Shown: positions 3,521 through 35,491, counted from the first letter of the stretch. The stretch: DNA of 36,663 nt from Candidatus Komeilibacteria bacterium CG_4_10_14_0_8_um_filter_37_78 (GCA_002785295.1 PFMC01000013.1:1-36663); one strand, 5' to 3'. A program made the numbers and translations. Notes: generated by a model from the sequence alone, not told the origin.

Positions 3521-3901
3521 ATGACTAAGCAAGATAAAAAAGTATTGGTTGCTGAGGATGATCATTTCTTAGCCAAGATATACAAAATAAAATTAGCTAA
3601 GGAAGGGATCAATGCGGAGATTGCTACAGACGGTAATGAAGCGCTAGCCAAGATTAAGGAGTTGAAACCAGACTTGGTGCTTTTGGATTTGGTGATGCCT
3701 GGCAAGGATGGCTTTGAAGTGCTGGAGGAATTGCAATCTGATAAGGGATTGAAAAAAATTCCGATTATTATTTTATCCAATTTGGGTCAGGAAGCAGATA
3801 TCATCAAAGGAAAGTCATATGGCATTGTCGATTATTTTATTAAGAGTGATATCTCCATTCATGATGTTGTTAAAAAAATAAAGGAAATATTAAATGACTA
3901 A
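3521..3901 (+). CDS. single-domain (receiver-only, CheY-like) response regulator
   Basis: 126 aa. Acidic pocket EDD, phospho-acceptor context LVLLDLVMPG, conserved S in ILSNLG and K in YFIKS. No output domain. Confidence 0.93.
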   Translation: MTKQDKKVLVAEDDHFLAKIYKIKLAKEGINAEIATDGNEALAKIKELKPDLVLLDLVMPGKDGFEVLEELQSDKGLKKIPIIILSNLGQEADIIKGKSYGIVDYFIKSDISIHDVVKKIKEILND

Positions 3902-5567
3902 TGAGGATATTAAAAAAATAGTTTTGGAAACCGGTTTGATCACCGAAGAAAAGTTGAAAGAAGTAGAAGAATTAGCCAAAGATAATGGTGAATCCTTCGA
4001 GGAAGAAGTGGTTAATCAGGGTTTGATGTCAGATGAGAATCTCGGACAGTTAATTGCTGATAGTAAAGGCTATCATTATGTTAATCTGAAAAATACTGAG
4101 ATTGAAGATGAGGCCTTAGCCGTCATCCCAGAAGTTGTCGCTAAGAATCAAATGGCGATTGCTTATAGTATTGCTGGAGATACTTTGAAGGTAGCGATGC
4201 ACGATCCTGGCAATTTGGATTTTATCCACTTATTAGAGAAAAAGGGTAGCAAATTTATCGAACCATATTTTGCCACTTTGCGAGATTTGAAACAAGCTTT
4301 GAACAAATATCGCAAGAATATCACAGAAGAATTTGACGACATTATGAAAGTCAATGTCGAAGAGGCAAAAAAGTCGGCTAAGGCTGAAGATTTGCCAGTG
4401 ATCAAAATCGCTGATACCTTACTTGCTTATGCATATCAAAATGGTGCTTCAGATATTCATTTGGAGCCATATGAAAAAAAGAGTTTAGTTCGTTATCGGA
4501 TTGATGGTGTTTTGCATGATGTCGTTGATTTACCGAAGAAGGTTCATGATTTGCTGATTACACGTTTTAAGATCTTAGCAAAGCTTCGTATTGACGAACA
4601 TCGGGCTGCTCAAGATGGCAAACTACAATTTATGACCGAAGATGGCAGAGTGGATGTTCGTGTTTCGATTGTGCCGATTACTGAAGGAGAGAAAGTGGTG
4701 ATGCGTTTATTATCTGCCAAGAATAGGCAGTATCGACTTGAAAGTTTAGGTTTTTCAGACAAGGATTTGAAAATTGTTAGTAAGGCTATCAAAAAACCGC
4801 ATGGCATGATCTTGGCTACTGGTCCAACTGGTTCTGGTAAGACTACAACTTTATATGCCATCCTTTATGTCGTCAATTCACGTGAAGTAAATATTTCAAC
4901 GGTGGAAGACCCAGTCGAATATGATATGGAAGGGGTTAATCAGATTCAGGTCAATCGTACTACAGATTTGACCTTTGCCAATGGTTTACGATCACTCCTG
5001 CGACAAGATCCGGACATCATCATGGTTGGTGAAATTCGTGATGAAGAAACAGCCAATATCGCGATCAATGCAGCGATGACTGGCCATTTGGTTTTGTCTA
5101 CTTTACATACCAATGATGCCGCAACAACTATCCCTCGTTTTATGGATATGGGTGCAGAACCATTTCTTGTATCTTCAACTATCAATGTTGTGATTGCGCA
5201 ACGTTTGGTTCGTAAAAACTGTGTCAAATGTATGGCTAGTTACACGATCACTTATGAAGAATTGGTCAAATCATTGACTGCACCGATGATTGCTCAGACC
5301 TTGGGTAAAAAAAAGAGCTATCGTTTTTATCAGAGCAAGGGTTGTGCTGTTTGTCATCATTCTGGTTATCGTGGGCGAATGGGTATTTACGAAGTCTTAG
5401 AAGTAACGCCAGCGATCAAAGAGATGATCATGCAAAGGGCCAATGCTGATGAGATCAAAGTGCAGGCGATCAAAGAGGGGATGACTACTATCTTAGAAGA
5501 TGGTATTCAGAAAGTAGCCAGTGGTCAGACCACGATCGAAGAAATCTTGCGTGTTTCGAAAGAATAG
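3894..5567 (+). CDS. pilB: type IV pilus assembly ATPase PilB (GspE family)
   Basis: Walker A GPTGSGKTTT. T2SSE_N-like N-terminus (GLITEEKLKEV.., GLMSDENLGQLI). Tetracysteine CVKC...CAVC. 557 aa. Confidence 0.96.
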   Translation: MTNEDIKKIVLETGLITEEKLKEVEELAKDNGESFEEEVVNQGLMSDENLGQLIADSKGYHYVNLKNTEIEDEALAVIPEVVAKNQMAIAYSIAGDTLKVAMHDPGNLDFIHLLEKKGSKFIEPYFATLRDLKQALNKYRKNITEEFDDIMKVNVEEAKKSAKAEDLPVIKIADTLLAYAYQNGASDIHLEPYEKKSLVRYRIDGVLHDVVDLPKKVHDLLITRFKILAKLRIDEHRAAQDGKLQFMTEDGRVDVRVSIVPITEGEKVVMRLLSAKNRQYRLESLGFSDKDLKIVSKAIKKPHGMILATGPTGSGKTTTLYAILYVVNSREVNISTVEDPVEYDMEGVNQIQVNRTTDLTFANGLRSLLRQDPDIIMVGEIRDEETANIAINAAMTGHLVLSTLHTNDAATTIPRFMDMGAEPFLVSSTINVVIAQRLVRKNCVKCMASYTITYEELVKSLTAPMIAQTLGKKKSYRFYQSKGCAVCHHSGYRGRMGIYEVLEVTPAIKEMIMQRANADEIKVQAIKEGMTTILEDGIQKVASGQTTIEEILRVSKE

Positions 5568-5582
5568 ATCATTAAATTACAA

Positions 5583-5597
5583 TGTACAAATTGTACA
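5583..5597. promoter_or_regulatory. perfect 7-1-7 palindrome TGTACAAATTGTACA (candidate operator)
   Basis: Read directly. It also forms a tandem 9-mer TGTACAAAT x2 (5583-5600) inside the 240-bp pilB-pilC spacer. Confidence 0.3.
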
Positions 5598-5641
5598 AAT
5601 AACAAACAAATTACAAATTTCAATATTCAAATTGTTTAGTC

Positions 5642-5686
5642 TTTGTGATTTGGTGCTTGATTCTTGTTTGTATTTTGGTGCTTGAT
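5642..5686. repeat. direct repeat with 25-bp period
   Basis: TTTGGTGCTTGAT at 5649-5661 and 5674-5686 (perfect). The flanks TTTGTGA/TTTGTAT extend the similarity. Confidence 0.85.
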
Positions 5687-5807
5687 AATTGTTATTTATT
5701 AAACTGCAATGTTCATTTTCTTAATAGCTAATTAGGTATTTAGCTACTTAGCCTTTAATTTTTCACTTTTTACTCATAACTTATAATTTTTAACTTAATC
5801 CACCCCC

Positions 5808-7016
5808 ATGCTATTTGATTATGTCGCTACATCAGCCGACGGTGCTGTTAAAAAAGGTGAGATCGAAGCTCCTGATAAAGGTGCGGCAATTTTATTATTG
5901 AAAAAACAAACACTGCAGATCGTCAAAGTAGAGCGTAAAACAAAGAAGGCAAAAAATGATATTGCGATTGGCGGCATAAAATTTGTTGATAAGGTCTTGT
6001 TGGCTAGGCATTTGGCAATTATGATCAAGGCAGGTGTCAATATGGCTGAAGCCTTGGAAATCTTAGTGGAGCAAGCTAGCAATCCAAAATTAAGAAAAAT
6101 ATTGACAGCAGTGTCGGCTAGAGTGGTAAATGGTCATACTCTATCTTCTTCCCTGGCCCTTTATCCTAAGGAGTTTTCTGAATTATTTATCAATATGATT
6201 GCGGTCGGCGAAACTAGTGGTACTTTAGCTGCCAATCTTGAGTATCTAGCTGGTGAGATGGAAAAAAGCTATGAATTAAAGAAAAAAATAAAATCAGCCT
6301 CAATTTATCCAATGATTGTCCTGATTGCTACTTTTGGGTTGGCTTTTATCTTGGTCTATTTTATTCTACCAAAGATGACAAAACTATTTGAAACCATGAC
6401 TGTCGAGCTACCATTATCGACTAGAATTTTGATTGCTGTGGCTAAGGGTTTTGAAGAACATGGTTTATTAATCTTGGTTATACTAGTGGCTGTGGTGGTT
6501 GGTGGATTTTTTACTCTACGACAAAAGAAAGTAAAAAAATATACCCACAAATTTTTATTAAAATTACCAGTGATGGGTCATATTTCTAAACAACTAAATC
6601 TAGCCAATTTCAATCGAACATTGGGCATTCTATTAACTAGTGGTGTGCCAGCAGTTGAAGCTTTGAATATCACCGCTGGCGTATTAAACAATTATACTTA
6701 TAAAGAAGAGGTTAGACTTTTGGCCAAAGCCGTGGAAAGAGGATTGTCTATTTCTGAAGCTTTGAGCACTCGTTCAACGAAAATCTTTCCACGCATGTCA
6801 ACCAGACTTTTAGGGGTGGGCGAAAAGACTGGTGAACTAGATAGCTCCCTCAACTATTTAGGAGATTTTTATAGCCGAGAAGTTGATAATATTACTAAGA
6901 ACTTATCAAATATTTTAGAACCAATGCTCTTGATCATTATTGGTCTGGCCGTTGGTTTTGTCGCTATTTCTATTATTCAGCCAGTTTATAAGATCTCTGG
7001 TGGTTTAAGAAAATAA
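5808..7016 (+). CDS. pilC: type IV pilus platform protein PilC (GspF family)
   Basis: 402 aa. N-terminus FDYVATSADGAVKKGEIEA. Two T2SSF-type repeats and three hydrophobic segments. Confidence 0.95.
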   Translation: MLFDYVATSADGAVKKGEIEAPDKGAAILLLKKQTLQIVKVERKTKKAKNDIAIGGIKFVDKVLLARHLAIMIKAGVNMAEALEILVEQASNPKLRKILTAVSARVVNGHTLSSSLALYPKEFSELFINMIAVGETSGTLAANLEYLAGEMEKSYELKKKIKSASIYPMIVLIATFGLAFILVYFILPKMTKLFETMTVELPLSTRILIAVAKGFEEHGLLILVILVAVVVGGFFTLRQKKVKKYTHKFLLKLPVMGHISKQLNLANFNRTLGILLTSGVPAVEALNITAGVLNNYTYKEEVRLLAKAVERGLSISEALSTRSTKIFPRMSTRLLGVGEKTGELDSSLNYLGDFYSREVDNITKNLSNILEPMLLIIIGLAVGFVAISIIQPVYKISGGLRK

Positions 7017-7017
7017 A

Positions 7018-7470
7018 ATGATTTTTTATCAAGCTAGAGGGTTCAATTTAGTACAAGTACTTTTGGTATTAGCAATCTTTATGATCATTGCTAGTTTTGC
7101 TATACCAAGTTTGTACCAATTGCAGACTGGTGTGCAGATTGATACTGTCGCTTCAGAAATGTCTCATAATTTACGGCGAGCGCAAATCAGAGCACTGAGT
7201 GGTTTTAATGATTCAAATTGGGGAGTCTATTGGCAAGAACGAAGCTATACTATTTTTGCTGGTGATTCTTTTGTTGCTAGAGATCAAGATTGGGATGAAG
7301 ATTATTTAATAACTGGTTCAGTGTTGATCAGCAATGATTTGGGTGACGAGATTATTTTTACTAAACAAACAGGTGAGCCAGATACTGCCGGTAGTATAAT
7401 TTTGACCAATCCCGCTAATGAAACATCCACTGTTTATATTAGTGAGTTGGGAGTGATTGATTTACAATAA
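7018..7470 (+). CDS. minor pilin-like protein (GspH/FimT-like) with Gln instead of Glu at mature position +5
   Basis: Class III-like signal MIFYQARG|FNLVQVLLVLAIFMII. Start is 1 nt after the pilC stop. 150 aa. Confidence 0.7.
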   Translation: MIFYQARGFNLVQVLLVLAIFMIIASFAIPSLYQLQTGVQIDTVASEMSHNLRRAQIRALSGFNDSNWGVYWQERSYTIFAGDSFVARDQDWDEDYLITGSVLISNDLGDEIIFTKQTGEPDTAGSIILTNPANETSTVYISELGVIDLQ

Positions 7471-7476
7471 ATTTTT

Positions 7477-10437
7477 ATGAAGCAACGAGAGAAAAATTTA
7501 GGATTTTCATTAATCGAAGCAATTGTTGCTTTGGGAGTTTTTTCTCTATTAGTAGCTAGTATTTCGGGCACCGCCGGATTGACCTTTCTTTCTGAGATTC
7601 AGGGTGGGGAAAGGACTGTGGCCCAAGCTTATGCTGTCGAAGGAATGGAGGCAATTCGTTCGATCAGAGAATTGGGTTGGTCAGAACTAACAATTGGTCA
7701 ACACGGTTTATCCAAGGAGCAAGGCTATTGGGAATTATCTGGTAGTGAAGATATTTTAGGACAATTTACCAGGACAATTACCATTGCTGAGGTTTATCGT
7801 GATGTTGATCAAACTATTTTAGCTGAGGGTGGTAGTCTGGACCAACATACTAAACTTATCTCTGTTTTAATATCTTGGGAAATATCACCAGGTAATGATA
7901 ATGAATTTTTATTAGAAAATTATTTGACCAATTGGGCTAGTCTTGATTGGTCACAAACAAATTGGTCTGGTGGTGCTGGTCAAGCTAGTTGGAGTATTGA
8001 CAATCAATTTTGGACAGCTGATGAAAGTATTGATGTTAATACAGTTGGAGAATTATCACTGAATCAGGCGGGAACTAACCCCAGTCCTTATGCCTTATTA
8101 ATGCATTTTGATGGCTCTCGCTATCAAAGCCAAGACAGTATTGATAATTATAGTTTTGAAAATTATCTAGGAATAGCCCCCAATATTGACTTTGATGATT
8201 GGACTGAATATCAGCTAGGTGCAGATTTTAGTGTGGAACCAGGCTATCAAGGTAGTTCCGCGGTGCGGATTGATTATCAGTGGCCTTTGGCTTTAGGGGG
8301 GGTCTATCAAGCAGCAATTCCGGTCGTTGGTGATACGACTTATCAGTTATCATTTTTTGTCAAAGGTAATGTAGCTTACAATGATTTAATTGTCCATGAT
8401 GAGGATAATTATTATTTGCGTTCTAATGGTAGTTTTACTTGGTGGTTTACTGATATTGCGATTGATGTGTTTTATACAGAAAATGATTGGGCTCAATACA
8501 CAATTTCTTTTACGACTCGTAGCAATGCTAGCTATCTCTATATTACTATTAATGGGTGGGCTATGGATTCTGGTCAATGGTTGGCACTAGACAATATAGT
8601 ATTATCACAAGAGATCGTTTATGATGAAGGTTCTTATCAGAATCATGGTTTTAAAAAACCAAACGATGACGCGGGACCAGAATATGTTACTGGTCAGTTT
8701 GATCAAGCTTTGGACTTTGATGGTGCTGGTGGCAGTACCAGTGGTGATTATGTTTTGGTTCCAGCTGCAGATAGTTTAAATGTTACTGGTCCAATCACCT
8801 TGGAAGCTTGGATCAATCCAGACAGTCTGGGGAGTGGTATTGAAAGGCCAATTATTACTAAATGGAGTGATGCTGGTGGTGATTGGCGGTCTTATTCTTT
8901 ATCTGTTTTAGCCAATGGTAAATTGCGCTTTAGTTTGAGTAGTGATGGTGAAAGTGGCAATGGTCACACTTATTCTCTTGATAGTAGTGAGCAAATAGAA
9001 ACAGGTGAATGGCAACACGTAGTTGGAGTTTACGACAATACTGAAATGCGAGTTTATATCAATGGTGAGCCAGAAGGTTCTCAAGCTTATGATCAGGGCA
9101 TCTTTGATAGTGGTACCAATGCTGATGTGTTAATTGGCTCAACTTATAATAATTTGTACAATGACAATCGTTTCAATGGTCAGATTGACGAAGTTTCCAT
9201 TGAACTAATTGCTTTGACAGACACTCAGGTTGAAGATCATTATAGCAACTCACCTCTGACCCCAGAAGATGTGATAGTTTGGTTTGCGCCAACACCAATT
9301 GGAGTTTTCATGGCTGATAAGAAGGTTGCTGGTATGCACGTCAATAGTAGCTATCTCTATATTGCTTTACTGGACAAAAAAAGAGTAGAGATTTTTGATC
9401 TTAGTTCAAATCCTGAAAACCCACCATCTTTGGGCGTTTTTAATACGATCAATAAATCAGAAGATGTTTTTACTTATGGTAATTATTTTTATGTGATGAC
9501 TGATATTGCTTCACCAGGTATTGAGATTTATTATTATGATAGCAATCCGATAGAGGCAATATCAATTGGAACAATCAACCTTAATGATCAACCCGCTGGT
9601 ATTTGGATTGATGGTGATATCTTATATGTAGCTCTCAATGATGACAGCGTTCAAGTCTTTGATTTAAATCCTGATCCAGCAGTGCCTATTTCTTTAGGCG
9701 ATTTTGCTACTACCAATACCGCTACTGATATTTCTATTTATGGCGATTATGCCTATGTTTCACTTGATGATGATGTTGAAGCTTTACAAACCTTTGATAT
9801 TTCTATTGATCCAGCCAATCCTACTTCTACCAGTATTGCCAGCGCGATTGAAGAAGTAAATGGTGTGACAGCGATGGAAGATTATCTATTCTTGATTACC
9901 AAGGGTACTAGTCGGAAGGTCTTGGTTTATAATATTGGCGATGAACCAGCAATACCAGTAGCTCTTGGCGATCTTACTATTTTTGATAATGGTTGGGATA
10001 TCGCGGTGCGTGGTAGCTATATTTATGTGGGTTTGGGTGGCAGTACCAAGGGTGTCCAAGTATTTGATATGACTTTTATGCTCGCTGGCGGTAGTGGTGA
10101 TACCAATTTTGAAGTTTACGGCACTCTAGAATCCTCAGCTTTTGATACTGGCAATGCTAGTGGTTTTAACTTTATTTCCTGGTCAGAAACATTGCCAGCA
10201 CCAGAAGATAATATCAAGGTGCAAATCAAAACAGCGCCAACAGAAGCTGGTTTATCAGCTTCTTCCTGGGTTGGTTTAAGTGGTATCAATACTTACTATG
10301 AAGTAGGTAATGAAACAATTATTTATCCGAGCAATGGTCACAATGAAGATCGCTGGATCAAATATCTCGTTAGTTTATATGGTTCTGGAGACACCAGTCC
10401 GATTTTACACGATTTTAAAATAAATTATACACCCTAA
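7477..10437 (+). CDS. giant pilin-headed protein: prepilin N-terminus plus small pilin-like domain, jelly-roll CBM-like module, LamG/concanavalin-like module, six LVIVD-like beta-propeller repeats and a C-terminal beta domain (putative pilus tip adhesin)
   Basis: MKQREKNLG|FSLIEAIVALGVFSLLVA. LamG-like ...ITLEAWINPDS...RFNGQIDEVSIE. Repeats such as YLYIALLDKKRVEIFDLSSNPENP, ILYVALNDDSVQVFDLNPDPAVP and YAYVSLDDDVEALQTFDISIDPANP. Confidence 0.85.
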   Translation: MKQREKNLGFSLIEAIVALGVFSLLVASISGTAGLTFLSEIQGGERTVAQAYAVEGMEAIRSIRELGWSELTIGQHGLSKEQGYWELSGSEDILGQFTRTITIAEVYRDVDQTILAEGGSLDQHTKLISVLISWEISPGNDNEFLLENYLTNWASLDWSQTNWSGGAGQASWSIDNQFWTADESIDVNTVGELSLNQAGTNPSPYALLMHFDGSRYQSQDSIDNYSFENYLGIAPNIDFDDWTEYQLGADFSVEPGYQGSSAVRIDYQWPLALGGVYQAAIPVVGDTTYQLSFFVKGNVAYNDLIVHDEDNYYLRSNGSFTWWFTDIAIDVFYTENDWAQYTISFTTRSNASYLYITINGWAMDSGQWLALDNIVLSQEIVYDEGSYQNHGFKKPNDDAGPEYVTGQFDQALDFDGAGGSTSGDYVLVPAADSLNVTGPITLEAWINPDSLGSGIERPIITKWSDAGGDWRSYSLSVLANGKLRFSLSSDGESGNGHTYSLDSSEQIETGEWQHVVGVYDNTEMRVYINGEPEGSQAYDQGIFDSGTNADVLIGSTYNNLYNDNRFNGQIDEVSIELIALTDTQVEDHYSNSPLTPEDVIVWFAPTPIGVFMADKKVAGMHVNSSYLYIALLDKKRVEIFDLSSNPENPPSLGVFNTINKSEDVFTYGNYFYVMTDIASPGIEIYYYDSNPIEAISIGTINLNDQPAGIWIDGDILYVALNDDSVQVFDLNPDPAVPISLGDFATTNTATDISIYGDYAYVSLDDDVEALQTFDISIDPANPTSTSIASAIEEVNGVTAMEDYLFLITKGTSRKVLVYNIGDEPAIPVALGDLTIFDNGWDIAVRGSYIYVGLGGSTKGVQVFDMTFMLAGGSGDTNFEVYGTLESSAFDTGNASGFNFISWSETLPAPEDNIKVQIKTAPTEAGLSASSWVGLSGINTYYEVGNETIIYPSNGHNEDRWIKYLVSLYGSGDTSPILHDFKINYTP
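9325..10074 (+). repeat. six protein-level repeats of about 40 aa (LVIVD-like) inside the giant pilin gene
   Basis: Recurrent pattern aromatic-x-Y-[IV]-x-L...[VL]-x-[IVT]-[FY]-[DN]-[LI]-x2-3-P-x2-P at aa about 617-866. Confidence 0.7.
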
Positions 10438-10440
10438 AGA

Positions 10441-10944
10441 ATGAAGATTAATAAATTACAAAATTCTCAAGGATTTACCTTGCTAGAAGTCATCATCTAT
10501 ATGGCGATTGTTTCTGCTATTTTGACTGTGGCAATCTTTTTTGCTTGGTCGATTATTGGTAATCAATCTAAGAGTATGGTGGTGACTGAAGTCAATCAGA
10601 ATAGTAGATTTATTTTAGAAAGAGTGGGTCGTGACTTAAGGCAAGCGAGTAGTATTGCTAGTCTGGCTAGTGAACAGCTAGTACTCAATATCCTTGGTGG
10701 AGATCAATTAACTTTTGTTTTTGATGATATTAATCAGCAATTGACTAGACAATTAAACGAAGATACAGCAACTATTTTAAATAGCTCCTTGGTGGATGTT
10801 AGTGGTGCTTGGCAGAATTTGTCAGCCAATGATTCTGCTACTATTGGTCTGGATTTGACAGTTGCTTTCAAGACTAATAGCAATCACACAGACTGGCAAG
10901 CCAGCACCAGCACCTCATCAAGTTATGAATTACGAGTAAAATAA
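10441..10944 (+). CDS. minor pilin (PilW/GspJ-like)
   Basis: Prepilin signal MKINKLQNSQG|FTLLEVIIYMAIVSAIL. 167 aa. Confidence 0.75.
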   Translation: MKINKLQNSQGFTLLEVIIYMAIVSAILTVAIFFAWSIIGNQSKSMVVTEVNQNSRFILERVGRDLRQASSIASLASEQLVLNILGGDQLTFVFDDINQQLTRQLNEDTATILNSSLVDVSGAWQNLSANDSATIGLDLTVAFKTNSNHTDWQASTSTSSSYELRVK

Positions 10945-11321
10945 TGAAACTACAAAAAGATCAACAAGGTTTAATTGCACTAATATCTATTTTGGTTATT
11001 AGTTCTGTCGTGTTGTTAATCACAATCACGATGAGTTGGCAGTCAACTTCTGAATTACAAATGTCTTGGTGGACCAATCAATCTGAACAGGCTTATAGTT
11101 TGGCTGATAGTTGCTTGGAAGAAGGTTTGAATAAGTTGCGACTGAATTGGCAGAATTACAATGGCAATTTAGAGATTGATAGTAATTCGTGTATAATAGA
11201 AATAGAGACAACAGTTAATCTAGCTACTGTTGCTGTGATGGCCACTGTTGATCAAATCAATCGATCGATCATAGCCACCATTGATCAAAATTTTCAATTT
11301 ACAAACTGGCAAGAAAACTAA
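10944..11321 (+). CDS. PilX/GspK-like minor pilin-type protein lacking Glu+5
   Basis: MKLQKDQQG|LIALISILVISSVVLLITI. Overlapping TAATG junctions on both sides. 125 aa. Confidence 0.6.
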   Translation: MKLQKDQQGLIALISILVISSVVLLITITMSWQSTSELQMSWWTNQSEQAYSLADSCLEEGLNKLRLNWQNYNGNLEIDSNSCIIEIETTVNLATVAVMATVDQINRSIIATIDQNFQFTNWQEN

Positions 11322-13336
11322 TGTCAAAATTAAACAATTTTTTCGCTCTTGATATCAGTGATAATTCACTTGAAGTTTTGGGTTCTCAGAAAAATTTTTG
11401 GGGTCAAACGGTGATCAAAAATGTCAATCGTTTACCGCTAGAAAAGGGTTTGATTGTTGATGGTCAAATCAAAAATGCGAATGCTTTGATCAAGACGCTG
11501 AAAAAATTATTGGCCACAGCTAAGCCAACAAAAATAACTAGTAAGCACTGCTTGCTATCAATCCCGGAAAATAAGGTATTCACTCACATTTTTAAGGTTC
11601 CTAGTGCTCTGAAGGGCGATGAAATTGAGGAGTTTTTACTCAATCAAGCTGAAGGCATCATTCCTTTCAATCGGGAGACGGTTTATGCTGATTATGCTGA
11701 AATGGAGACCGATAATAAAGAAAAAAAGATTTTATATGTTGCTGCGCCAAAAAAATTGATTGATGATATCATTGCTATTTTAAAACAACTCAATATTACA
11801 GTCTTATTCATTGAGTTAGAGTCATTGTGTACATCGCGAGCTTTAATAGATAAAAAAACTGGCAAGAAAGCAACGATGATTATTGATATTGGTGGTAATT
11901 TTTCTAATATTGGCATTTTTGATAAGGGCGGTGTGAAATTAACGGTTAGTTTGCCAGTTGCCGGCAATCATATTACGCAGCAGATCAAAGCCAAAAACAA
12001 ACTAACGCTTGAAAAGGCAGAAGAAATTAAAGTGAGTAAAGGTTTGAAATCACCCAATAAGAAGGTTTTAGAAGCTATTCATAGTAGTCTTGATAAAATT
12101 ATTAGCGAAGCTACTCGTTCGATAGAGTATTATCAGCAAAAAACTGGTCAGGTAGTTGATCAATTATTAATCATTGGTGGTACAGCGCACCTTCCTGGTT
12201 TAAAAGATTATTTTACTCGGCAGATGGGAATGGAGATCATCATGGGCAATCCCTGGAATGTGATCAAAAAGGTGCCTAGTGTCAGTAAATATTTTCGTAA
12301 AGAGGACGCTTATCTATTTACCACAGTGATGGGTTTGATCGTCCGTGGTTTTGCTAAGAATTATAAGCAAGGTATCAATCTATTACCCAATGGTCGTCAA
12401 CAAAAAAAGGGATTTACTCTAGGGGAGGGGATCAAGAAAAGTTGGTGGAAAATTTTGGTTTTGATTTTAATAATTTGTGCTTTTACTGGGATTATTGTTT
12501 TTCGGGATAGTTTAAGAATGTCCAGAAAAGACAAAATAAGTAATACTGAGCAGGCAATTCAGTATCAAGTTGATTTCTCAGTTGATTATGGTAGCGAAGC
12601 AATGACTAGCATTGATATTCCACGTTTGCGGGGAGAGCTTATAGTCAATTATGGTACAGCAGAAGTAGTCTTAGTTAATATTTCAGTGGCAGATTTTCCC
12701 AGTCTGGCTGGTGATTATCTAGATTTACACAATGACACTAGTCAGTCTATTACCCTAAGAAAAGCATCACGTTTGGAGTTTAATGACCAAGTTTATTCAT
12801 TGGCGGAGATTGTCACCTTACCAGCACAAGCAGTGAAAACTGTCCAGGTTGTTAGTGAAGATAATACAGAAGTTGTTTTAGAACCAGGTAATTATAGTTT
12901 TGTTAGTTTAACGGCGGATCAACAACAAACAATTTATGGTATCAAAAATTATGAGTTGGCAACGCTTAGTCCAGAACAAGCCGCCAAGTTTGATATTGTT
13001 GAATTATCAACAGCTCAGGAGAATCTAAAGAAAATAGCAGCTGAAACCGCGACTTCATTTATTGATGATCGTTATATTATTAGTGAGCCAATTGATATTA
13101 AAGTGGTGAATGTGAGCTATCTGAGGCAAGGTGATCAATTAGCATTACGCGGAAATTTTGAATATACTTGGGTCAAAATCACAGAAGATGATTTATATTC
13201 GCTAATATTAGCCAATTATCCTGATAAGAATTTGGCTTTCGCTGAATTGGATCAAGCCCTATTAGAATTGAAGCCACTGAATATTAATGGCGCATCACAA
13301 ACAATGACAGTTTCTTCGCTGTGGACAATTCAGTAG
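11321..13336 (+). CDS. pilM: PilM-PilN fusion protein with a long C-terminal extracytoplasmic domain
   Basis: Actin-like PilM N-terminus (FFALDISDNSLEVLG, MIIDIGGNFSNIG, LLIIGGTAHLPGL). In-frame PilN signature INLLP (12374-12388). One TM segment WWKILVLILIICAFTGIIVF. Then about 277 aa of unassigned ectodomain. Confidence 0.85.
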   Translation: MSKLNNFFALDISDNSLEVLGSQKNFWGQTVIKNVNRLPLEKGLIVDGQIKNANALIKTLKKLLATAKPTKITSKHCLLSIPENKVFTHIFKVPSALKGDEIEEFLLNQAEGIIPFNRETVYADYAEMETDNKEKKILYVAAPKKLIDDIIAILKQLNITVLFIELESLCTSRALIDKKTGKKATMIIDIGGNFSNIGIFDKGGVKLTVSLPVAGNHITQQIKAKNKLTLEKAEEIKVSKGLKSPNKKVLEAIHSSLDKIISEATRSIEYYQQKTGQVVDQLLIIGGTAHLPGLKDYFTRQMGMEIIMGNPWNVIKKVPSVSKYFRKEDAYLFTTVMGLIVRGFAKNYKQGINLLPNGRQQKKGFTLGEGIKKSWWKILVLILIICAFTGIIVFRDSLRMSRKDKISNTEQAIQYQVDFSVDYGSEAMTSIDIPRLRGELIVNYGTAEVVLVNISVADFPSLAGDYLDLHNDTSQSITLRKASRLEFNDQVYSLAEIVTLPAQAVKTVQVVSEDNTEVVLEPGNYSFVSLTADQQQTIYGIKNYELATLSPEQAAKFDIVELSTAQENLKKIAAETATSFIDDRYIISEPIDIKVVNVSYLRQGDQLALRGNFEYTWVKITEDDLYSLILANYPDKNLAFAELDQALLELKPLNINGASQTMTVSSLWTIQ

Positions 13337-13468: not shown

Positions 13469-13933
13469 ATGCGTAAAGGTTTTACCTTAATCGAGTTGTT
13501 AATTGTTATCGGCATTATTGCCATCTTAGCAGCTTTAACATTCGTCGCTGTAGATCCTGCTACTCGTTTCGCAGAAGCAAGAAATGCAGAACGTTGGTCA
13601 GCTGCTAATTCAGTATTGAATGCTGTGCTTAAGTATCAAGTTGATAATGATGGCACTATGCCATCAGGTCTTGATGCTGTAGCTGGTAGTTCACAGGTAT
13701 TAGGTACAGCTGCCACAGGTTGTGATTCAACTTGTACAGCAGACACTACAGTTGCTACTTGCGTTGATCTAAGTACTGATCTAGTATCAAAGTATTTAGC
13801 ATCAATACCACAAGATCCAAGTACAGGAGCAGCTACTAATACAGATTATTACATCAATGTTGACGCTAATGGTCGTCTAGCTGTTGGTGCATGTGATCCA
13901 GAATTATCTGAAACCATTACAGTTTCTCGATAA
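13469..13933 (+). CDS. pilA: type IV pilin (major pilin candidate)
   Basis: MRKG|FTLIELLIVIGIIAILAAL. 154 aa, A/T-rich, four Cys. Has its own promoter-like element and a terminator. Confidence 0.9.
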   Translation: MRKGFTLIELLIVIGIIAILAALTFVAVDPATRFAEARNAERWSAANSVLNAVLKYQVDNDGTMPSGLDAVAGSSQVLGTAATGCDSTCTADTTVATCVDLSTDLVSKYLASIPQDPSTGAATNTDYYINVDANGRLAVGACDPELSETITVSR

Positions 13934-14976: not shown

Positions 14977-17003
14977 TGAATTTAGATAATTTTTTCCAAC
15001 CAAAGTCTATTGCTTTAATTGGTGCTTCTCGAGACACTACTTCTTTAGGTTTTAATCTTCTCAATAATTTATTGAAATATGGCTATGCTGGTAAATTGTA
15101 TCCGGTTAATCCTAAAGCCAAGACCATTCTCAATCTTATTTGCTTTTCAGCAGTCAAAGAGATCAAAGGAATTATTGATTTGGCGATTATCATGGTGCCA
15201 GCAGCAATAGTTAAAAATGTGTTGATTGAATGTGGCCAAAAAAAGATCAAGGCAGCGATTATCATTTCGTCTGGCTTCAAAGAAATGGATGCTACCGGAG
15301 CAGAGTTGGAAAAAGAATTGGTGATGATAGCAGCAAATTATCATATGCGTTTGCTCGGACCAAATTGTTTAGGTTTGATCAACCCACATCTAAATTTAAA
15401 CGCATCATTTGCCGAGGGTTTACCAGAACGGGGGAATATTTCATTGATTTCACAATCTGGTGCGATGGCTGTGGCTATTTTGGACTGGGCTTACCAAACA
15501 AAATTGGGTTTTAGTAAAATTGTCAGTATTGGAAATAAAGCAGACTTGTCAGAGATAGAATTGCTAGAATATTTAGCTCAGGATAAGTCAACTGAGGTTA
15601 TTTTATTATATTTAGAAAGTATCAAAGATGGTCGTCGTTTTATGGAAATAGCTAGTGAGATCAGTTTGCGAAAACCAATCATTGCTTTGAAAGCTGGTAA
15701 TAGTGCTGCAAGTCAGCAAGCGATTTTGTCACATACTGGCTCTTTGGCTGGTTCACTGCAGACAGTTGAGACAGCTTTTAAACAATGTGGCATCATCAAA
15801 GCCAATTCCATTGAAGATTTATTTGATTATGCCAAGGGTTTTAGTTTGGCCCCACCATTAAAGAATAATAGAGTAGCGGTGATCACCAATGCTGGTGGCT
15901 TGGGTATCGTCACTACTGATGCTTTGACTGAGACTACATTGCAATTGGCAACATTATCGACTAGCACAAAAAGCAAGTTAAAAGAAAAATTACCAGCATC
16001 TAGTAGTGTCAACAATCCAGTTGATTTGGTTGGTGATGCTTTAACTGATCGCTATGATTGGGCTTTACAGCAGGTCTTAGCTGACAAGGGCGTTGATGGT
16101 GTGATGGTCATTTTGACATCTCAGACGATGACGCAGGAGGATCAGACAGCAGAGTTGATCGTAAAATATGTTAAGCAAACAAAAAAGCCAATTTTTACTT
16201 GTTTTATGGGTGGTCAAGATATAAATTCTGGGCGTATTATTTTGTATCAAAATAATGTACCAAATTTTGAATTCGTTACTAGAATGGTTAAGACTGTGGA
16301 GCAGATGTATTTATACCAAAGCCAAAAAATAACAGTAAAGTTTGCCAACATTAAGTATCGTGAAAAGCAAATTGTTCATGATCAGCAACAATTACCAACT
16401 ATCGAGTGCGAGAAATTATTAATTAAGCACAAATTACCAGTCTTAAAAAGTGAGTTAATAACCGATCTTGGTGATTTGGTAAAAATAAAACAATGGCCAA
16501 TTGTGATGAAGATTGCTTCAACTGACATTATTCATAAAAAAGCTAGCAATGCTGTCGAGCTTAATATCAATACAATTGAAGCTGCACGGATGTCTTATCA
16601 AAGTATCATTCATAATGTTCAGAAAATTAACCCTAATGCCGACATTGATGGTGTACTATATCAACCCATGATGGCGTTGGGTCAAGAGATCATCATTGGC
16701 ATGAAAAGAGATGCAAGTTTTGGACCGGTGATGATGTTCGGGATGGGTGGTTCATTAGTAGAAATCTTTAAGGATCTTAGTTTTGCGATAGCTCCAGTGT
16801 CCAAAGAACAGGCTATGAAGATGATCACTAGGATTAGGAGTTTTGAGTTAATCAAAGATTATGATTTGTCTGCTTTAGCTGATATAATAGTAAGACTGGC
16901 TAACTTTTCATTAAGCTATAATCAGATCAGCTCGATTGATTTGAATCCAGTAATGCTTTATCAAAAAGGAGCTAAAATAGTAGATGTCAGAATAATGTTA
17001 TGA
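14976..17003 (+). CDS. acd: acetate--CoA ligase (ADP-forming), fused alpha/beta domains
   Basis: CoA-binding N-terminus PKSIALIGASRD, phosphohistidine loop LSHTGSLAG, C-terminal ATP-grasp-like region. 675 aa. Confidence 0.92.
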   Translation: MNLDNFFQPKSIALIGASRDTTSLGFNLLNNLLKYGYAGKLYPVNPKAKTILNLICFSAVKEIKGIIDLAIIMVPAAIVKNVLIECGQKKIKAAIIISSGFKEMDATGAELEKELVMIAANYHMRLLGPNCLGLINPHLNLNASFAEGLPERGNISLISQSGAMAVAILDWAYQTKLGFSKIVSIGNKADLSEIELLEYLAQDKSTEVILLYLESIKDGRRFMEIASEISLRKPIIALKAGNSAASQQAILSHTGSLAGSLQTVETAFKQCGIIKANSIEDLFDYAKGFSLAPPLKNNRVAVITNAGGLGIVTTDALTETTLQLATLSTSTKSKLKEKLPASSSVNNPVDLVGDALTDRYDWALQQVLADKGVDGVMVILTSQTMTQEDQTAELIVKYVKQTKKPIFTCFMGGQDINSGRIILYQNNVPNFEFVTRMVKTVEQMYLYQSQKITVKFANIKYREKQIVHDQQQLPTIECEKLLIKHKLPVLKSELITDLGDLVKIKQWPIVMKIASTDIIHKKASNAVELNINTIEAARMSYQSIIHNVQKINPNADIDGVLYQPMMALGQEIIIGMKRDASFGPVMMFGMGGSLVEIFKDLSFAIAPVSKEQAMKMITRIRSFELIKDYDLSALADIIVRLANFSLSYNQISSIDLNPVMLYQKGAKIVDVRIML

Positions 17004-18187
17004 TCAAAAAAGTAATTATATTAAGTTTTGTTTTGCTCTTTGGTTGCTGGGTCAATAATACTCAAGCAGCGACTTATGATTTGAAACTAGAGAGTGGTGA
17101 TATCAGTTTTTCCGAAAGCGTCTTGATTGCTGGTAGTACAGTCAGAGTTTATGCTCGTATTTATAATACTGGCACTGAAGATATCGCTGGTTATGTCACT
17201 TTTTATCGTGGTGCTGCCATCGTTGATGATTCACAAACTGTTTCAGTCAGGCCAGGCAATTTTGCAGATGCCTGGGTTGATTTCCAAGTGCCAAATACAG
17301 CTTTTAATGTTTTAGCCAGAATTCAAGGCACACAACCAGCTGATCAAAATACCAGTAATAATGAAGCTTTAACTGGTTTGGTCACTCCAGATTTTGATAC
17401 TGATGGTGATGGTATTGCCAATTCGATTGATCCAGATGACGATAATGATAGTTTGACTGATTTGCAAGAACAACAATTGGGAACCAATCCTCTGGATACA
17501 GATTCTGACAATGATGGTGCTAGTGATTCGCAAGATGCTTTCCCTTTAAATAGCAATGAACAATTGGATACAGACAATGATACTATTGGTAATAATGCTG
17601 ATCCAGATGACGATAATGATGGCTTAGTTGATACAGAGGAAATATCTTTAGGAACCAATCCTTTGCTTGCTGACTCTGATGGGGATGGCGTTAATGACAA
17701 AAATGATTTTTATCCTCTGGATGGTAATCGTTCGGTTGAAGTAAGAGACATTTTTGAGCCAACACCAGAACTGAATAATAACGATGATAGTGAATTGCCT
17801 AGCGATACAGATGTTTTGCAAGATTTACAGAATATTTTGGATCAGACACAGGCATTGGATGATCAAGATGAGCCATTGCAAATTGACGCTATTATCAATT
17901 CGAATTTTAATCAATCCAAGGATGATAGTCAGCAAGGTTTTTGGCAAGCAATCTCGCAATGGTGGCTCTGGTTGATCGTCAGCATTGTGATGGTTATCGC
18001 TATTGCAGCTTATTATTTATATTTTCATTGGTTGGATAAAAAATATTTAGTAGCAAGGCCAGTGCAAGAAAAATTGGTTGTGGAAAAAGCCTTACCTGCA
18101 AAAACGATTAAACTGCAGCCAACCGTAACGCCACTTGATTTAAGACAGGGTCGTAGTAATAAGCGTTCACATAAAATGGATTTATAA
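17000..18187 (+). CDS. secreted, C-terminally membrane-anchored surface protein with a CARDB-like domain and thrombospondin type-3-like Ca-binding repeats
   Basis: Signal peptide MIKKVIILSFVLLFGCWVNNTQA. CARDB-like IAGSTVRVYARIYNTGTEDIAG. Repeats DTDGDGIANSIDPDDDND, DTDSDNDGASD, DTDNDTIGNNADPDDDNDG and DSDGDGVNDKND. Acidic linker and TM segment WWLWLIVSIVMVIAIAAYYLYF. Confidence 0.8.
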   Translation: MIKKVIILSFVLLFGCWVNNTQAATYDLKLESGDISFSESVLIAGSTVRVYARIYNTGTEDIAGYVTFYRGAAIVDDSQTVSVRPGNFADAWVDFQVPNTAFNVLARIQGTQPADQNTSNNEALTGLVTPDFDTDGDGIANSIDPDDDNDSLTDLQEQQLGTNPLDTDSDNDGASDSQDAFPLNSNEQLDTDNDTIGNNADPDDDNDGLVDTEEISLGTNPLLADSDGDGVNDKNDFYPLDGNRSVEVRDIFEPTPELNNNDDSELPSDTDVLQDLQNILDQTQALDDQDEPLQIDAIINSNFNQSKDDSQQGFWQAISQWWLWLIVSIVMVIAIAAYYLYFHWLDKKYLVARPVQEKLVVEKALPAKTIKLQPTVTPLDLRQGRSNKRSHKMDL

Positions 18188-34780: not shown

Positions 34781-34781
34781 T

Positions 34782-35426: not shown

Positions 35427-35491
35427 ATGTAGTTTTTAAAAAATTATATCCAGAAGATTAGTTATTTTTTAAATTTTAATTGAGGTAAATT

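What the first reader, a model, noticed from the sequence alone, without database searches (positions are those of the whole stretch)
7477..10437. 986-aa pilin-headed multi-lectin/beta-propeller protein: a tip adhesin fused onto a minor pilin?
- **Pilin head:** the protein starts with a canonical class III signal (MKQREKNLG|FSLIEAIVAL, Glu at +5) and a PilV/GspI-sized domain of about 150 aa.
- **Added modules:** it then carries about 830 extra residues.
  - a WS-x-TNWSGG segment;
  - a jelly-roll CBM-like module (aa about 222-378);
  - a LamG/concanavalin-like module (aa about 395-585);
  - six LVIVD-like repeats of about 40 aa (aa about 617-866);
  - a beta-rich C-terminal domain.
- **Gene order:** the flanking genes run H-like (7018), this gene, J-like (10441), K/X-like (10944). 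That mirrors gspHIJK and fimU-pilVWX tip-complex operons.
- **No separate adhesin:** no pilY1/pilC-type adhesin gene is present, so the adhesin function appears covalently fused to the tip pilin.
- **Why it matters:** for an episymbiotic-type reduced bacterium this would be the prime candidate for host or glycan recognition. I am not aware of an experimentally characterised pilin with this domain stack.
Basis: partly seen in the sequence, partly recalled or inferred. Interest (0 to 1): 0.72.

Follow-up and report, generated by a model that had tools for sequence, protein, structure and literature searches.

The report
Giant lectin-carrying minor pilin of Patescibacteria
This gene encodes a type IV pilus subunit from an ultrasmall Komeilibacteria bacterium that has about 830 residues of sugar-binding-type and propeller domains fused to it, so it is a likely pilus-tip adhesin, a kind of protein ("modular pilin") that is already known, here in a new domain combination.

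Summary
**Observation.** It is confirmed in every detail. ORF 7477-10437 encodes 986 aa with these parts:
- a class III signal (G|FSLIE);
- a pilin head of about 150 aa, modelled at high confidence;
- a conserved WSGG connector;
- a CBM_4_9 module and a Laminin_G_3 module;
- a six-bladed LVIVD propeller (pLDDT >90);
- a beta-rich C-terminal domain.

Eight colinear orthologs (53-89% identity) from independent assemblies rule out a chimera.

**Fusion onto a minor pilin.**
- The gene is the second of four minor-pilin genes between pilB/pilC and pilM/major pilin. All nine other loci examined show the same order.
- Homologs of the head exist as stand-alone 140-160-aa pilins in the same slot. They end exactly where the connector begins here.

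**Wider family.** The head and connector define a large family that appears specific to Patescibacteria, with at least 2,278 clusters at E ≤1e-10. Variable cargo (total lengths 98-2,414 aa) is bracketed by the connector and a conserved C-terminal domain of about 115 aa. Neither element is in Pfam.

**Not tested.** Tip location and glycan or host binding are inferred, not tested.

**Novelty.**
- Modular pilins are published, and pilin+Laminin_G_3 is their commonest architecture.
- S. sanguinis PilC and Saccharibacteria PilX1/PilX2 are studied examples.
- I rate this a new member of a known kind, of moderate interest.

The parts
7477..7503 (+). Class III (prepilin) leader peptide MKQREKNLG, predicted to be cleaved after Gly9
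   Evidence: Read directly from the sequence: G|FSLIE, with Phe+1 and Glu+5. Conserved in the orthologs.
7504..7932 (+). Pilin module (aa 10-152): hydrophobic alpha1 helix plus an antiparallel beta-sheet head
   Evidence: - Pfam N_methyl, aa 6-29, 20.3 bits.
- A profile of the head matches alpha1N of solved pilins.
- AF2 pLDDT >90.
- Homologous to stand-alone 140-160-aa pilins in the same slot.
7933..8076 (+). Conserved connector (aa 153-200), motif DW.QT.WSGG.GQ..WS...GE..L
   Evidence: - Conserved across the family, as a single copy in 140 proteins.
- No Pfam hit.
- Low pLDDT.
8077..8616 (+). CBM_4_9-like jelly-roll module (aa about 201-380)
   Evidence: - Pfam PF02018, aa 221-361, E 6.8e-8.
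- The AF2 model shows a beta-sandwich, pLDDT 64-81.
- It is the most variable module among the orthologs, with 50% mean identity.
8689..9252 (+). Laminin_G_3 / concanavalin-A-like module (aa about 405-592)
   Evidence: - Pfam PF13385, aa 422-585, E 3.9e-31.
- Partial match to the LamG part of NCBIfam TafC.
9295..10074 (+). Six-bladed LVIVD beta-propeller (aa 607-866)
   Evidence: - Pfam PF08309.
- AF2 shows 24 strands at pLDDT >90.
- Foldseek matches it to propellers.
10075..10437 (+). Conserved C-terminal beta-rich domain (aa 867-986) plus the stop codon
   Evidence: - An HMM built from the orthologs finds the domain at the extreme C-terminus of 104 of 145 family representatives.
- No Pfam or PDB sequence hit.
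7018..7470 (+). Slot-1 minor pilin (H-like), G|FNLVQ with Gln5
   Evidence: Sub-threshold hits to ComGD (1.6e-6) and GspH. N-terminus read.
10441..10944 (+). Slot-3 minor pilin (J-like), G|FTLLE
   Evidence: Pfam N_methyl 28.7 bits. Sub-threshold hits to ComGF and HpsC.
10944..11321 (+). Slot-4 minor pilin (K-like), G|LIALI without Glu5
   Evidence: Sub-threshold hit to the GspK N-terminus, 3.1e-5. Glu5 is absent in all 8 loci where this pilin's N-terminus is readable.
3894..5567 (+). PilB-type assembly ATPase
   Evidence: Pfam T2SSE, E 2.2e-133, plus MshEN.
5808..7016 (+). PilC platform protein
   Evidence: Pfam T2SSF, E 5.4e-58.
11321..13336 (+). PilM fused to a transmembrane segment and an unassigned C-terminal part
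   Evidence: PilM_2, E 1.3e-39. TIGR01175 above its cutoff. The C-terminal part has no Pfam hit.
13469..13933 (+). Candidate major pilin, G|FTLIE
   Evidence: N_methyl 30.8 bits. Its first 40 residues are almost identical in the orthologous loci: only position 2 differs in L001, and L002 is identical.

Best explanation
The gene encodes a modular type IV minor pilin of a Candidatus Komeilibacteria (Patescibacteria/CPR) bacterium. The proposed mechanism has four steps.

1. **Processing (inferred).** The prepilin is inserted into the membrane. A prepilin peptidase, not encoded in the scanned part of the window, removes the 9-residue leader after Gly9. This leaves a 977-aa mature pilin of about 107 kDa with pI about 4, anchored by its hydrophobic alpha1 helix.
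2. **Priming complex.** Gene order, Glu5 pattern and head homology are shown; the assembly itself is inferred. As the second of four minor pilins, the protein joins the slot-1, slot-3 and Glu5-less slot-4 pilins in a complex that primes filament assembly on PilC. PilB-driven addition of the major pilin then carries this complex out at the pilus tip.
3. **Cargo display.** The architecture is shown; the geometry is inferred. A conserved connector of about 45 aa leads out of the pilin head. It is followed by a chain of cargo modules: a CBM_4_9-like jelly roll, a Laminin_G_3 jelly roll, a six-bladed LVIVD propeller and a conserved terminal beta domain of about 115 aa. About 830 residues of cargo would not fit in the filament body.
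4. **Ligand binding (inferred by analogy).** The lectin-type modules bind surface glycans, and possibly other ligands through the propeller. The target could be a host cell or a substrate, so the pilus would act as the attachment and recognition organelle.

In evolutionary terms, cargo was fused to the C-terminus of a short stand-alone slot-2 pilin. Across Patescibacteria, this slot accepts variable cargo.
For: **Pilin identity.**
- G|FSLIE motif.
- N_methyl hit at 20.3 bits; orthologs carry PF07963.
- A profile of the head matches alpha1N of solved pilins, E 0.0015.
- AF2 head model at pLDDT >90 with a 55-residue helix and a beta-sheet.

**Fusion onto a minor pilin.**
- Stand-alone 140-160-aa homologs exist, one of them named PilV by JGI.
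- They sit in the same operon slot.
- They end at YLTNW, exactly where the connector starts here.

**Pilus context.** All nine other loci examined show pilB-pilC-pilin-THIS-pilin-pilin-(pilM)-major pilin.

**Tip-complex-like set.**
- The slot-4 pilin lacks Glu5 in all 8 loci where its N-terminus is readable, and the slot-2 pilin always has Glu5.
- Sub-threshold ComGD, ComGF and GspK hits follow the gene order.

**Cargo.**
- Pfam CBM_4_9, Laminin_G_3 and LVIVD score above their cutoffs.
- The propeller is modelled at pLDDT >90.

**Precedents.**
- S. sanguinis PilC is a pilin with a ConA-like lectin module. It binds glycans and is modelled at the tip.
- Modular pilins are proposed to be tip-exposed.
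- Saccharibacteria PilX2 is a pilin with a propeller and is needed for efficient host binding; rhamnose inhibits binding.

**Against DNA binding.** All modules have pI about 4.
Against: - No experiment or complex model supports tip location or any ligand.
- Foldseek found no significant solved pilin match for the head. The best pilin hit is EpsI, E 0.5.
- The N_methyl score is marginally below Pfam's cutoff.
- No prepilin peptidase and no retraction ATPase were found among the scanned window ORFs.
- The connector, the LamG region and the C-terminal domain were modelled poorly, so their spatial arrangement is unknown.
- CBM and LamG folds also occur in proteins that do not bind sugars.
- Komeilibacteria are uncultivated, and their lifestyle and any host are unknown.
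Confidence: 0.7

Rival explanations
1. The protein is displayed on the pilus tip, but it does not recognise a host cell. It would instead capture environmental polysaccharide or particulate substrate, or bind biofilm matrix, for example to help scavenge nutrients.
For: - CBM_4_9 and Laminin_G_3 are typical of polysaccharide-binding and polysaccharide-degrading proteins.
- A pfkB sugar kinase gene lies just downstream of the locus.
- No host is known for Komeilibacteria.
Against: - No catalytic glycoside-hydrolase domain was detected in the protein or its neighbours.
- In the only Patescibacteria tested, a cargo-bearing pilin, PilX2, affects host binding.
Confidence: 0.2
2. The class III signal is used only for export and membrane anchoring. 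The protein would stay on the cell surface or on a short pseudopilus, in the manner of the Sulfolobus bindosome, rather than at the tip of an extended pilus.
For: - The Sulfolobus precedent comes from my own knowledge: archaeal sugar-binding proteins carry class III signals and form a surface "bindosome".
- No retraction ATPase was found among the scanned ORFs.
- The cargo is very large for passage with a filament.
Against: - The position inside a four-gene minor-pilin set next to pilB, pilC, pilM and the major pilin is strictly conserved.
- The head is orthologous to ordinary short minor pilins.
- Glu5 is retained, as expected for a subunit that packs into a filament.
Confidence: 0.1
3. The protein is the DNA receptor of a competence-type pilus, analogous to Thermus ComZ.
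For: - Gene order and weak hits resemble comGD-GE-GF-GG.
- ComZ is cited as a large minor pilin implicated in DNA binding.
Against: - The mature protein has pI about 4.05, with 138 Asp+Glu against 40 Lys+Arg.
- Every module is acidic, and no DNA-binding domain was found.
Confidence: 0.04
4. The long ORF is an assembly or gene-calling artefact that joins a pilin gene to a separate surface-protein gene.
For: The head also exists as a separate gene in other lineages.
Against: - Eight orthologs of 979-987 aa from NCBI, JGI, ENA and Logan assemblies align colinearly.
- The identical protein is on 7 contigs.
- GC content is even along the ORF.
- Hundreds of family members have the same head-connector-cargo-C-terminal domain layout.
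Confidence: 0.01

Closest known systems
Streptococcus sanguinis PilC, a modular minor pilin with a concanavalin-A-like lectin module (Shahin et al. 2023, PMC9934059)
   Same: - Class III signal followed by a pilin moiety.
- Grafted lectin module of the ConA-like/LamG superfamily.
- Works with a GspI-like partner in a minor-pilin complex modelled at the pilus tip.
- The system lacks PilY1.
   Different: - PilC is about 53 kDa, with one Ig-like and one lectin module.
- This protein is about 107 kDa with two jelly rolls, a propeller and a terminal domain.
- It is itself in the I slot.
- Sequence similarity does not go beyond the LamG superfamily.
- Glycan binding is shown for PilC and untested here.
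Nanosynbacter lyticus TM7x PilX1 and PilX2 (Saccharibacteria; PMC11623550, preprint)
   Same: - Patescibacterial type IV pilus minor pilins with C-terminal cargo: a jelly-roll lectin-like domain in PilX1 and a beta-propeller in PilX2.
- Both are proposed tip adhesins.
- Loss of PilX2 lowers host binding.
   Different: - There are two separate proteins on two different pili.
- The PilX2 propeller is seven-bladed and RCC1-type.
- SignalP predicted no PilD-type signal for either protein.
- Here a canonical G|FxxxE signal, both module types and a six-bladed LVIVD propeller are in one chain.
Modular pilins as a class (Raynaud et al. 2021, PMC8179133)
   Same: - An N-terminal IPR012902 pilin module is fused to domains not specific to pilus biology.
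- Pilin+PF13385 is the commonest architecture, with 229 proteins.
- Pilin+LVIVD (IPR013211) and pilin+CBM_4_9 (IPR003305) architectures are listed, including CPR proteins.
   Different: - None of the 264 listed architectures combines CBM_4_9, Laminin_G_3 and LVIVD.
- The conserved connector and C-terminal domain found here have no database signature, so that survey could not detect them.
PilY1/PilC tip adhesins of diderm type IVa pili
   Same: - A large adhesin with a beta-propeller.
- Presented by the minor-pilin tip complex.
- Variable N-terminal effector modules.
   Different: - PilY1 is not a pilin and carries the PF05567 propeller, which was not detected here.
- Here the carrier is the pilin itself.
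CofB/TcpB (type IVb pili) and Thermus ComZ, large minor pilins
   Same: A pilin module with extra beta-rich domains, proposed to sit at the tip and to initiate assembly or bind ligands (as cited).
   Different: The pilus class, the extra folds (beta-repeat/beta-sandwich, beta-solenoid) and the ligands (a secreted protein, DNA) all differ. No homology was detected.
GspI/EpsI/PilV/ComGE, the slot-2 core minor pilins
   Same: - Second position in an H-I-J-K-like gene set.
- Small head with Glu5.
- EpsI was the only pilin among the Foldseek hits.
   Different: - The Foldseek match is not significant (E 0.5).
- There is no sequence-level match beyond alpha1N.
- Known members carry no cargo.

Membership tests
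Type IV pilin (class III signal peptide proteins) | Short hydrophilic leader ending in Gly, then Phe/Met+1, Glu+5 and about 20 hydrophobic residues | tested here: met
   - MKQREKNLG|FSLIEAIVALGVFSLLVASI.
- Conserved in the orthologs.
- Pfam N_methyl scores 20.3 bits against a cutoff of 21.2, which is marginal.
- Orthologs carry PF07963.
Type IV pilin (class III signal peptide proteins) | Lollipop fold: long N-terminal alpha1 helix packed against an antiparallel beta-sheet | tested here: met
   - AF2 head model: helix 12-66 and strands 74-151, pLDDT >90.
- Foldseek gave no significant solved-pilin hit, so the fold class is read from the topology of the model.
Type IV pilin (class III signal peptide proteins) | Cleavage and N-methylation by a prepilin peptidase, and incorporation into a filament | not testable with these tools
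   No PilD gene among the scanned window ORFs. This needs biochemistry.
Modular pilin (sensu Raynaud et al. 2021) | A pilin module fused to one or more domains that are not specific to pilus biology | tested here: met
   CBM_4_9, Laminin_G_3 and LVIVD score above Pfam cutoffs downstream of the pilin module. The definition is quoted.
GspI/PilV/ComGE-type (slot-2) core minor pilin | Second gene of an H-I-J-K-type minor-pilin set, with a Glu5-less K-type subunit | tested here: met
   - The gene order is conserved in all nine other loci.
- The slot-4 pilin lacks Glu5 in all 8 loci where its N-terminus is readable.
- The family-specific HMM hits of the neighbours are all below their cutoffs.
GspI/PilV/ComGE-type (slot-2) core minor pilin | Sequence or fold similarity of the head to GspI/PilV | tested here: inconclusive
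   - EpsI (2ret_A) ranks 10th, with E 0.5, probability 0.57 and target-normalised TM 0.48.
- ComGE matches only at alpha1N, E 0.0068.
- The PDB profile search hits only alpha1N of major pilins.
PilY1/PilC adhesin family | Non-pilin protein with a C-terminal PF05567/IPR008707 propeller | tested here: not met
   No PF05567 hit. The protein has a pilin N-terminus, and its propeller is LVIVD-type with six blades.
LVIVD-repeat beta-propeller | Tandem PF08309 repeats of about 42 aa forming the blades | tested here: met
   38.1 bits against a cutoff of 20.2, in three stretches. Six blades at pLDDT >90.
Laminin_G_3 / ConA-like lectin superfamily | PF13385 match above the cutoff | tested here: met
   108.7 bits against 27.6, E 3.9e-31.
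Laminin_G_3 / ConA-like lectin superfamily | Actual carbohydrate binding | not testable with these tools
   This needs a glycan array or ITC with recombinant protein.
TafC (haloarchaeal Tat-fimbriae subunit, NF052521) | Full-length match above the 410-bit cutoff | tested here: not met
   54.4 bits, covering only the LamG part. TafC belongs to Tat-dependent archaeal fimbriae.

The most novel reading that the evidence does not exclude
The slot-2 (I/PilV-position) minor pilin of Patescibacteria may be a general cargo-display scaffold that has not been described.

- **Layout.** The family has a conserved pilin head, a connector of about 45 aa (DW.QTDWSGG.GQ) and a conserved C-terminal domain of about 115 aa. 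These bracket a region whose content varies widely between lineages.
- **Size range.** It runs from nothing (about 315-aa "empty" forms) to more than 2,000 aa of lectins, propellers and unknown folds. Even within Komeilibacteria the ORF sizes are 684 and 986 aa.
- **Possible role.** If so, this slot would be the main host-range or ligand-specificity determinant of these episymbionts. It would evolve by module swapping, much like phage receptor-binding proteins. The two unannotated conserved elements would be a new docking or folding unit.
Probability: 0.35. Interest if true: 0.6.

Novelty: new member of a known kind. Interest (0 to 1): 0.42.

Why it matters
How ultrasmall Patescibacteria find and hold on to their hosts is largely unknown, and type IV pili are the best lead so far.

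- **A concrete candidate.** This protein could be expressed and tested as a ligand-binding subunit in a lineage, Komeilibacteria, that has no cultured member.
- **A search handle.** The family analysis gives a way to mine thousands of such candidates from metagenomes: pilin head, WSGG connector and conserved C-terminal domain.
- **Annotation gaps.** Two conserved elements have no Pfam model.

The concept itself, an adhesin module grafted onto a minor pilin, is already established, so the gain is incremental rather than conceptual.

Tried and rejected
- **Foldseek on the full-length model.** It returned only generic WD40, Kelch and designer propellers, which gives no functional clue.
- **Foldseek on the confident head model.** No significant hit, so GspI/PilV fold identity could not be established.
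- **Head profile against PDB sequences.** It matched only alpha1N of major pilins.
- **Connector and C-terminal domain.** Neither has a Pfam hit, even at E ≤10. The C-terminal domain has no PDB sequence hit. A profile search with the C-terminal domain returned only 10 short or fragmentary proteins (116-224 aa; three labelled partial). I therefore could not tell whether the domain occurs outside pilins.
- **One split domain?** I considered that the connector and the C-terminal domain form one discontinuous domain with the cargo inserted in a loop.
  - The about 315-aa members, which are head + connector + C-terminal domain only, are compatible with this.
  - However, the C-terminal domain also occurs as internal extra copies without a connector, so it folds on its own.
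- **TafC hit.** It reflects only a shared LamG domain.
- **GTDB scan.**
  - The scan with A2 worked, but its patterns favour close relatives.
- **DNA-receptor idea.** Rejected on charge.
- **Chimera idea.** Rejected on the orthologs.
- **RNA genes.** No tRNA or Rfam element in the window.


Full report
**1.

Coordinates 7477-10437 (+) contain one 986-aa ORF starting at ATG, 6 bp after the stop codon of the upstream gene.

Pfam finds four families:
- N_methyl at aa 6-29: 20.3 bits, against a cutoff of 21.2.
- CBM_4_9 at aa 221-361: E 6.8e-8, above its cutoff.
- Laminin_G_3 at aa 422-585: E 3.9e-31.
- LVIVD at aa 749-783. When the repeat region is scanned alone, this rises to three stretches and 38.1 bits.

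The N-terminus reads MKQREKNLG|FSLIEAIVALGVFSLL. That is a textbook class III signal, with Gly-1, Phe+1 and Glu+5.

The protein has no cysteine and is very acidic. It has 138 Asp+Glu against 40 Lys+Arg, the mature form has pI about 4.05 and a mass of about 107 kDa, and every module has pI about 4.

**2. It is not an artefact**

- A search of 5.8 billion proteins returned eight full-length orthologs of 979-987 aa at 53-89% identity. The ones that carry a name are Candidatus Komeilibacteria MAGs, and they come from NCBI, JGI, ENA and Logan assemblies.
- These orthologs align colinearly over all modules.
- The exact window protein is on record on 7 contigs, and its closest named relative is annotated only as a "LamG-like jellyroll fold domain-containing protein".
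- GC content is even along the ORF.

**3. Structure**

The full-length AlphaFold2 model, built from 9 sequences, has mean pLDDT 59:
- Residues 607-865 are at pLDDT >90. They form 24 strands, which is six four-stranded blades, with strand 607-611 completing the last blade.
- The CBM-like region (243-378) is a beta-sandwich at pLDDT 64-81.
- The LamG region, the connector and the C-terminal domain were modelled poorly.

Foldseek against the PDB returned only generic propellers (WD40, Kelch, six-bladed designer proteins, BtuG2), so it confirms the fold and nothing more.

A second model covered aa 1-215 and used a 43-sequence alignment. It has pLDDT >90 for residues 11-150, with a helix (12-66) followed by an antiparallel sheet (74-151), which is the pilin "lollipop".

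Fold and sequence comparisons of the head were not decisive:
- Foldseek found no significant solved structure for this head. The only pilin in the list was EpsI/GspI (2ret_A, rank 10, E 0.5, probability 0.57).
- A profile of the head matched only the alpha1N segment of solved pilins (Geopilin, E 0.0015; PilA).

So the pilin nature is well supported. The specific GspI/PilV fold assignment is not.

**4. Genomic context**

The window gene order is:
- histidine kinase, response regulator;
- PilB (T2SSE, E 2.2e-133), PilC (T2SSF);
- a 150-aa pilin, this gene, a 167-aa pilin (N_methyl above cutoff), a 125-aa pilin-like protein;
- a PilM fusion, then a 154-aa pilin.

Sub-threshold NCBIfam hits follow the order ComGD/GspH, (ComGE), ComGF, GspK.

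The same arrangement is found in all nine other loci examined:
- Two are Komeilibacteria orthologs (L001, L002).
- Four are distant Patescibacteria whose slot-2 protein has 1,422, 1,004, 1,002 or 1,061 aa.
- Three have a slot-2 protein of only 153, 319 or 140 aa.

The N-termini show a consistent pattern:
- The slot-4 protein lacks Glu5 in all 8 loci where its N-terminus is readable (G|LIALI, G|MIALI, G|FVALF and so on), as GspK/PilX do.
- The slot-2 protein always has Glu5.

No PilY1-type gene, no PilD and no second (retraction) ATPase was detected in the window ORFs that I scanned.

**5. The fusion point and the wider family**

A profile of aa 1-222 finds stand-alone pilins of 140-160 aa, one of which JGI calls PilV. 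In the alignment these end at the motif YLTNW, which is residue about 153 here and exactly where the extra sequence begins.

An exhaustive HMMER search of 1.84 billion cluster representatives gave:
- 4,863 hits at E ≤1e-3;
- 2,278 hits at E ≤1e-10;
- 278 hits at E ≤1e-30.

Of the best 150 listed hits, the 145 not already in hand range from 98 to 2,414 aa, with a median of 821 aa. Most matches run through profile position about 200.

It is a conserved connector with consensus YLTNW.S.DW.QTDWSGG.GQ..WSD...Y.SDDGNID..T.GE.KL. The connector is present once, and never twice, in 140 proteins.

The last 119 residues (868-986) are a second conserved element. An HMM built from the orthologs finds it:
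- at the extreme C-terminus of 104 of these 145 representatives;
- in 92 of the 107 representatives that are at least 500 aa long.

Members of about 310-330 aa consist of head + connector + this domain only.

Neither element has a Pfam hit, and the C-terminal domain has no PDB sequence hit.

The cargo between the two elements is diverse. In 49 sampled members, Pfam found Laminin_G_3 (7), Laminin_G_2 (4), LVIVD (3), BNR-type propellers (3), DUF2341 (3), DUF4082 (3), Pentaxin (2), H_lectin (1) and others. Much of the cargo had no hit at all.

A scan of GTDB species genomes gave the following:
- It found the globular head in Komeilibacteria, Shapirobacteria, Woesebacteria, Paceibacterota, Saccharibacteria, Falkowbacteria and unclassified Patescibacteria.
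- It also found the head in two MAGs labelled Gammaproteobacteria, which are probably mislabelled.
- Hits in lineages clearly outside Patescibacteria mostly covered only the alpha1 helix; a few reached further at 23-34% identity.
- Slot-2 ORF sizes in those genomes run from about 163 to 1,404 aa, and are 684 and 986 aa within Komeilibacteria.

**6. Most likely mechanism**

Shown:
- The protein is a pilin-headed protein.
- It is encoded as the second of four minor pilins of a type IV pilus locus.
- It arose by fusion of cargo to a short minor pilin.
- It carries two carbohydrate-binding-type jelly rolls, a six-bladed propeller and a conserved terminal domain.

Inferred:
- The leader is removed by a prepilin peptidase.
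- The protein assembles with the three neighbouring minor pilins into a priming complex. That complex ends up at the pilus tip, which is the only place where 830 residues of cargo would fit.
- The cargo binds surface glycans or other ligands of a host cell or substrate.

The inference rests on published analogues:
- S. sanguinis PilC is a pilin with a ConA-like lectin module. It binds glycans and is modelled at the tip with a GspI-like partner.
- Modular pilins are in general argued to be tip-exposed.
- In Saccharibacteria TM7x, PilX1 carries a jelly roll and PilX2 a propeller. Loss of PilX2 lowers host binding, and rhamnose blocks binding.

My confidence differs by claim:
- about 0.9 that it is a modular minor pilin;
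- about 0.7 that it is displayed at the tip;
- about 0.55 that it binds glycans or a host.

**7. Rivals**

- **Same display, different target.** The target could be an environmental polysaccharide or biofilm matrix rather than a host. This cannot be excluded.
- **Bindosome-like surface anchoring without a filament.** This is disfavoured by the strictly conserved minor-pilin slot, the orthology to ordinary short pilins and the retained Glu5.
- **DNA receptor of a competence pilus.** The uniformly acidic modules disfavour this.
- **Assembly chimera.** Rejected.

**8. Comparison with what is known, and novelty**

- Raynaud et al. 2021 defined modular pilins and counted 1,219 of them in 264 architectures.
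- The commonest architecture is pilin+PF13385 (Laminin_G_3), with 229 proteins.
- Pilin+IPR013211 (LVIVD) architectures are numerous, and the paper's most extreme example is a CPR Falkowbacteria protein.
- Pilin+IPR003305 (CBM_4_9) is also listed.
- No listed architecture combines the three. I found no paper that describes the conserved connector/C-terminal bracket or the slot-2 specificity.

The finding is therefore a new member, with a new module combination, of a known kind. It is not PilY1-like by membership, because it has no PF05567 domain and has a pilin N-terminus. The partial TafC hit is only a shared LamG domain.

**9. Verdict**

- Function is still inferred, and the claim of unfamiliarity is overtaken by the literature.
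- The most interesting by-product is at the family level. A large scaffold family that appears specific to Patescibacteria has two unannotated conserved elements around swappable cargo. This is worth following up as a candidate specificity determinant of these episymbionts.

Noticed in passing
window 19234-19716 and 19742-20230: Two more type IV pilin genes (G|FTLLE, N_methyl-type) lie between the alpha (18189-19232) and beta (20246-20974) subunit genes of a 2-oxoacid:ferredoxin oxidoreductase. The orthologous locus L001 also has one pilin between POR_N and TPP_enzyme_C, so this odd placement is conserved.
   Followed up: partly
window 11321-13336: PilM is fused to a transmembrane segment and about 280 further residues with no Pfam hit, possibly PilN/PilO-like. 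The 671-675-aa form is conserved in Komeilibacteria, whereas other CPR loci have a PilM of 321-376 aa.
   Followed up: partly
window 7018-7470; L001 9559-10014; L002 9546-9998: The slot-1 (H-like) minor pilin has Gln instead of Glu at position 5 in all three Komeilibacteria loci (FNLVQ, FSILQ, FDMIQ). Other Patescibacteria loci keep Glu5.
   Followed up: partly
window 33995-36559: A restriction-modification cluster sits at the window end. It comprises an N6/N4 DNA methylase, an IceA-family endonuclease (PF05315, E 2.5e-114) whose ORF overlaps the methylase by about 50 bp, and a D12-class Dam-type methylase.
   Followed up: no
window 17000-18187: A 395-aa protein has an N-terminal signal-like segment, bacterial thrombospondin type 3 (calcium-binding) repeats and a C-terminal transmembrane anchor. 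It is conserved a few genes downstream of the pilus locus in L001 and L002, so it may be another surface adhesin.
   Followed up: no
window 5568-5807: A 241-bp AT-rich spacer lies between pilB and pilC and contains the motif TTGGTGCTTGAT twice. In the ortholog locus L001 the two genes are only 6 bp apart. No Rfam or tRNA hit.
   Followed up: partly
window 25184-26236: A 350-aa protein with an N-terminal hydrophobic segment that includes a Cys, suggestive of a lipoprotein signal, has a BNR/Sortilin-Vps10-type beta-propeller. It is conserved after the DNA polymerase III delta' gene in L002.
   Followed up: no
L010 and L023 (GTDB contigs CAYZWC010000023.1, CAYHUY010000001.1): Two MAGs labelled "uncultured Gammaproteobacteria" carry clear members of this Patescibacteria pilin family; L010 is 41% identical over aa 1-203 and its ORF is 980 aa. 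The labels probably reflect mis-binning or mislabelling.
   Followed up: no
locus of P0015 (JGI 3300072015, no DNA held): In this locus all four minor-pilin slots are enlarged: 361 aa with Fib_succ_major, 1,004 aa with LamG/DUF2341, 422 aa with LamG, and 294 aa. The locus is preceded by chemotaxis genes (MCP, CheW, CheA) rather than the usual PAS kinase.
   Followed up: no
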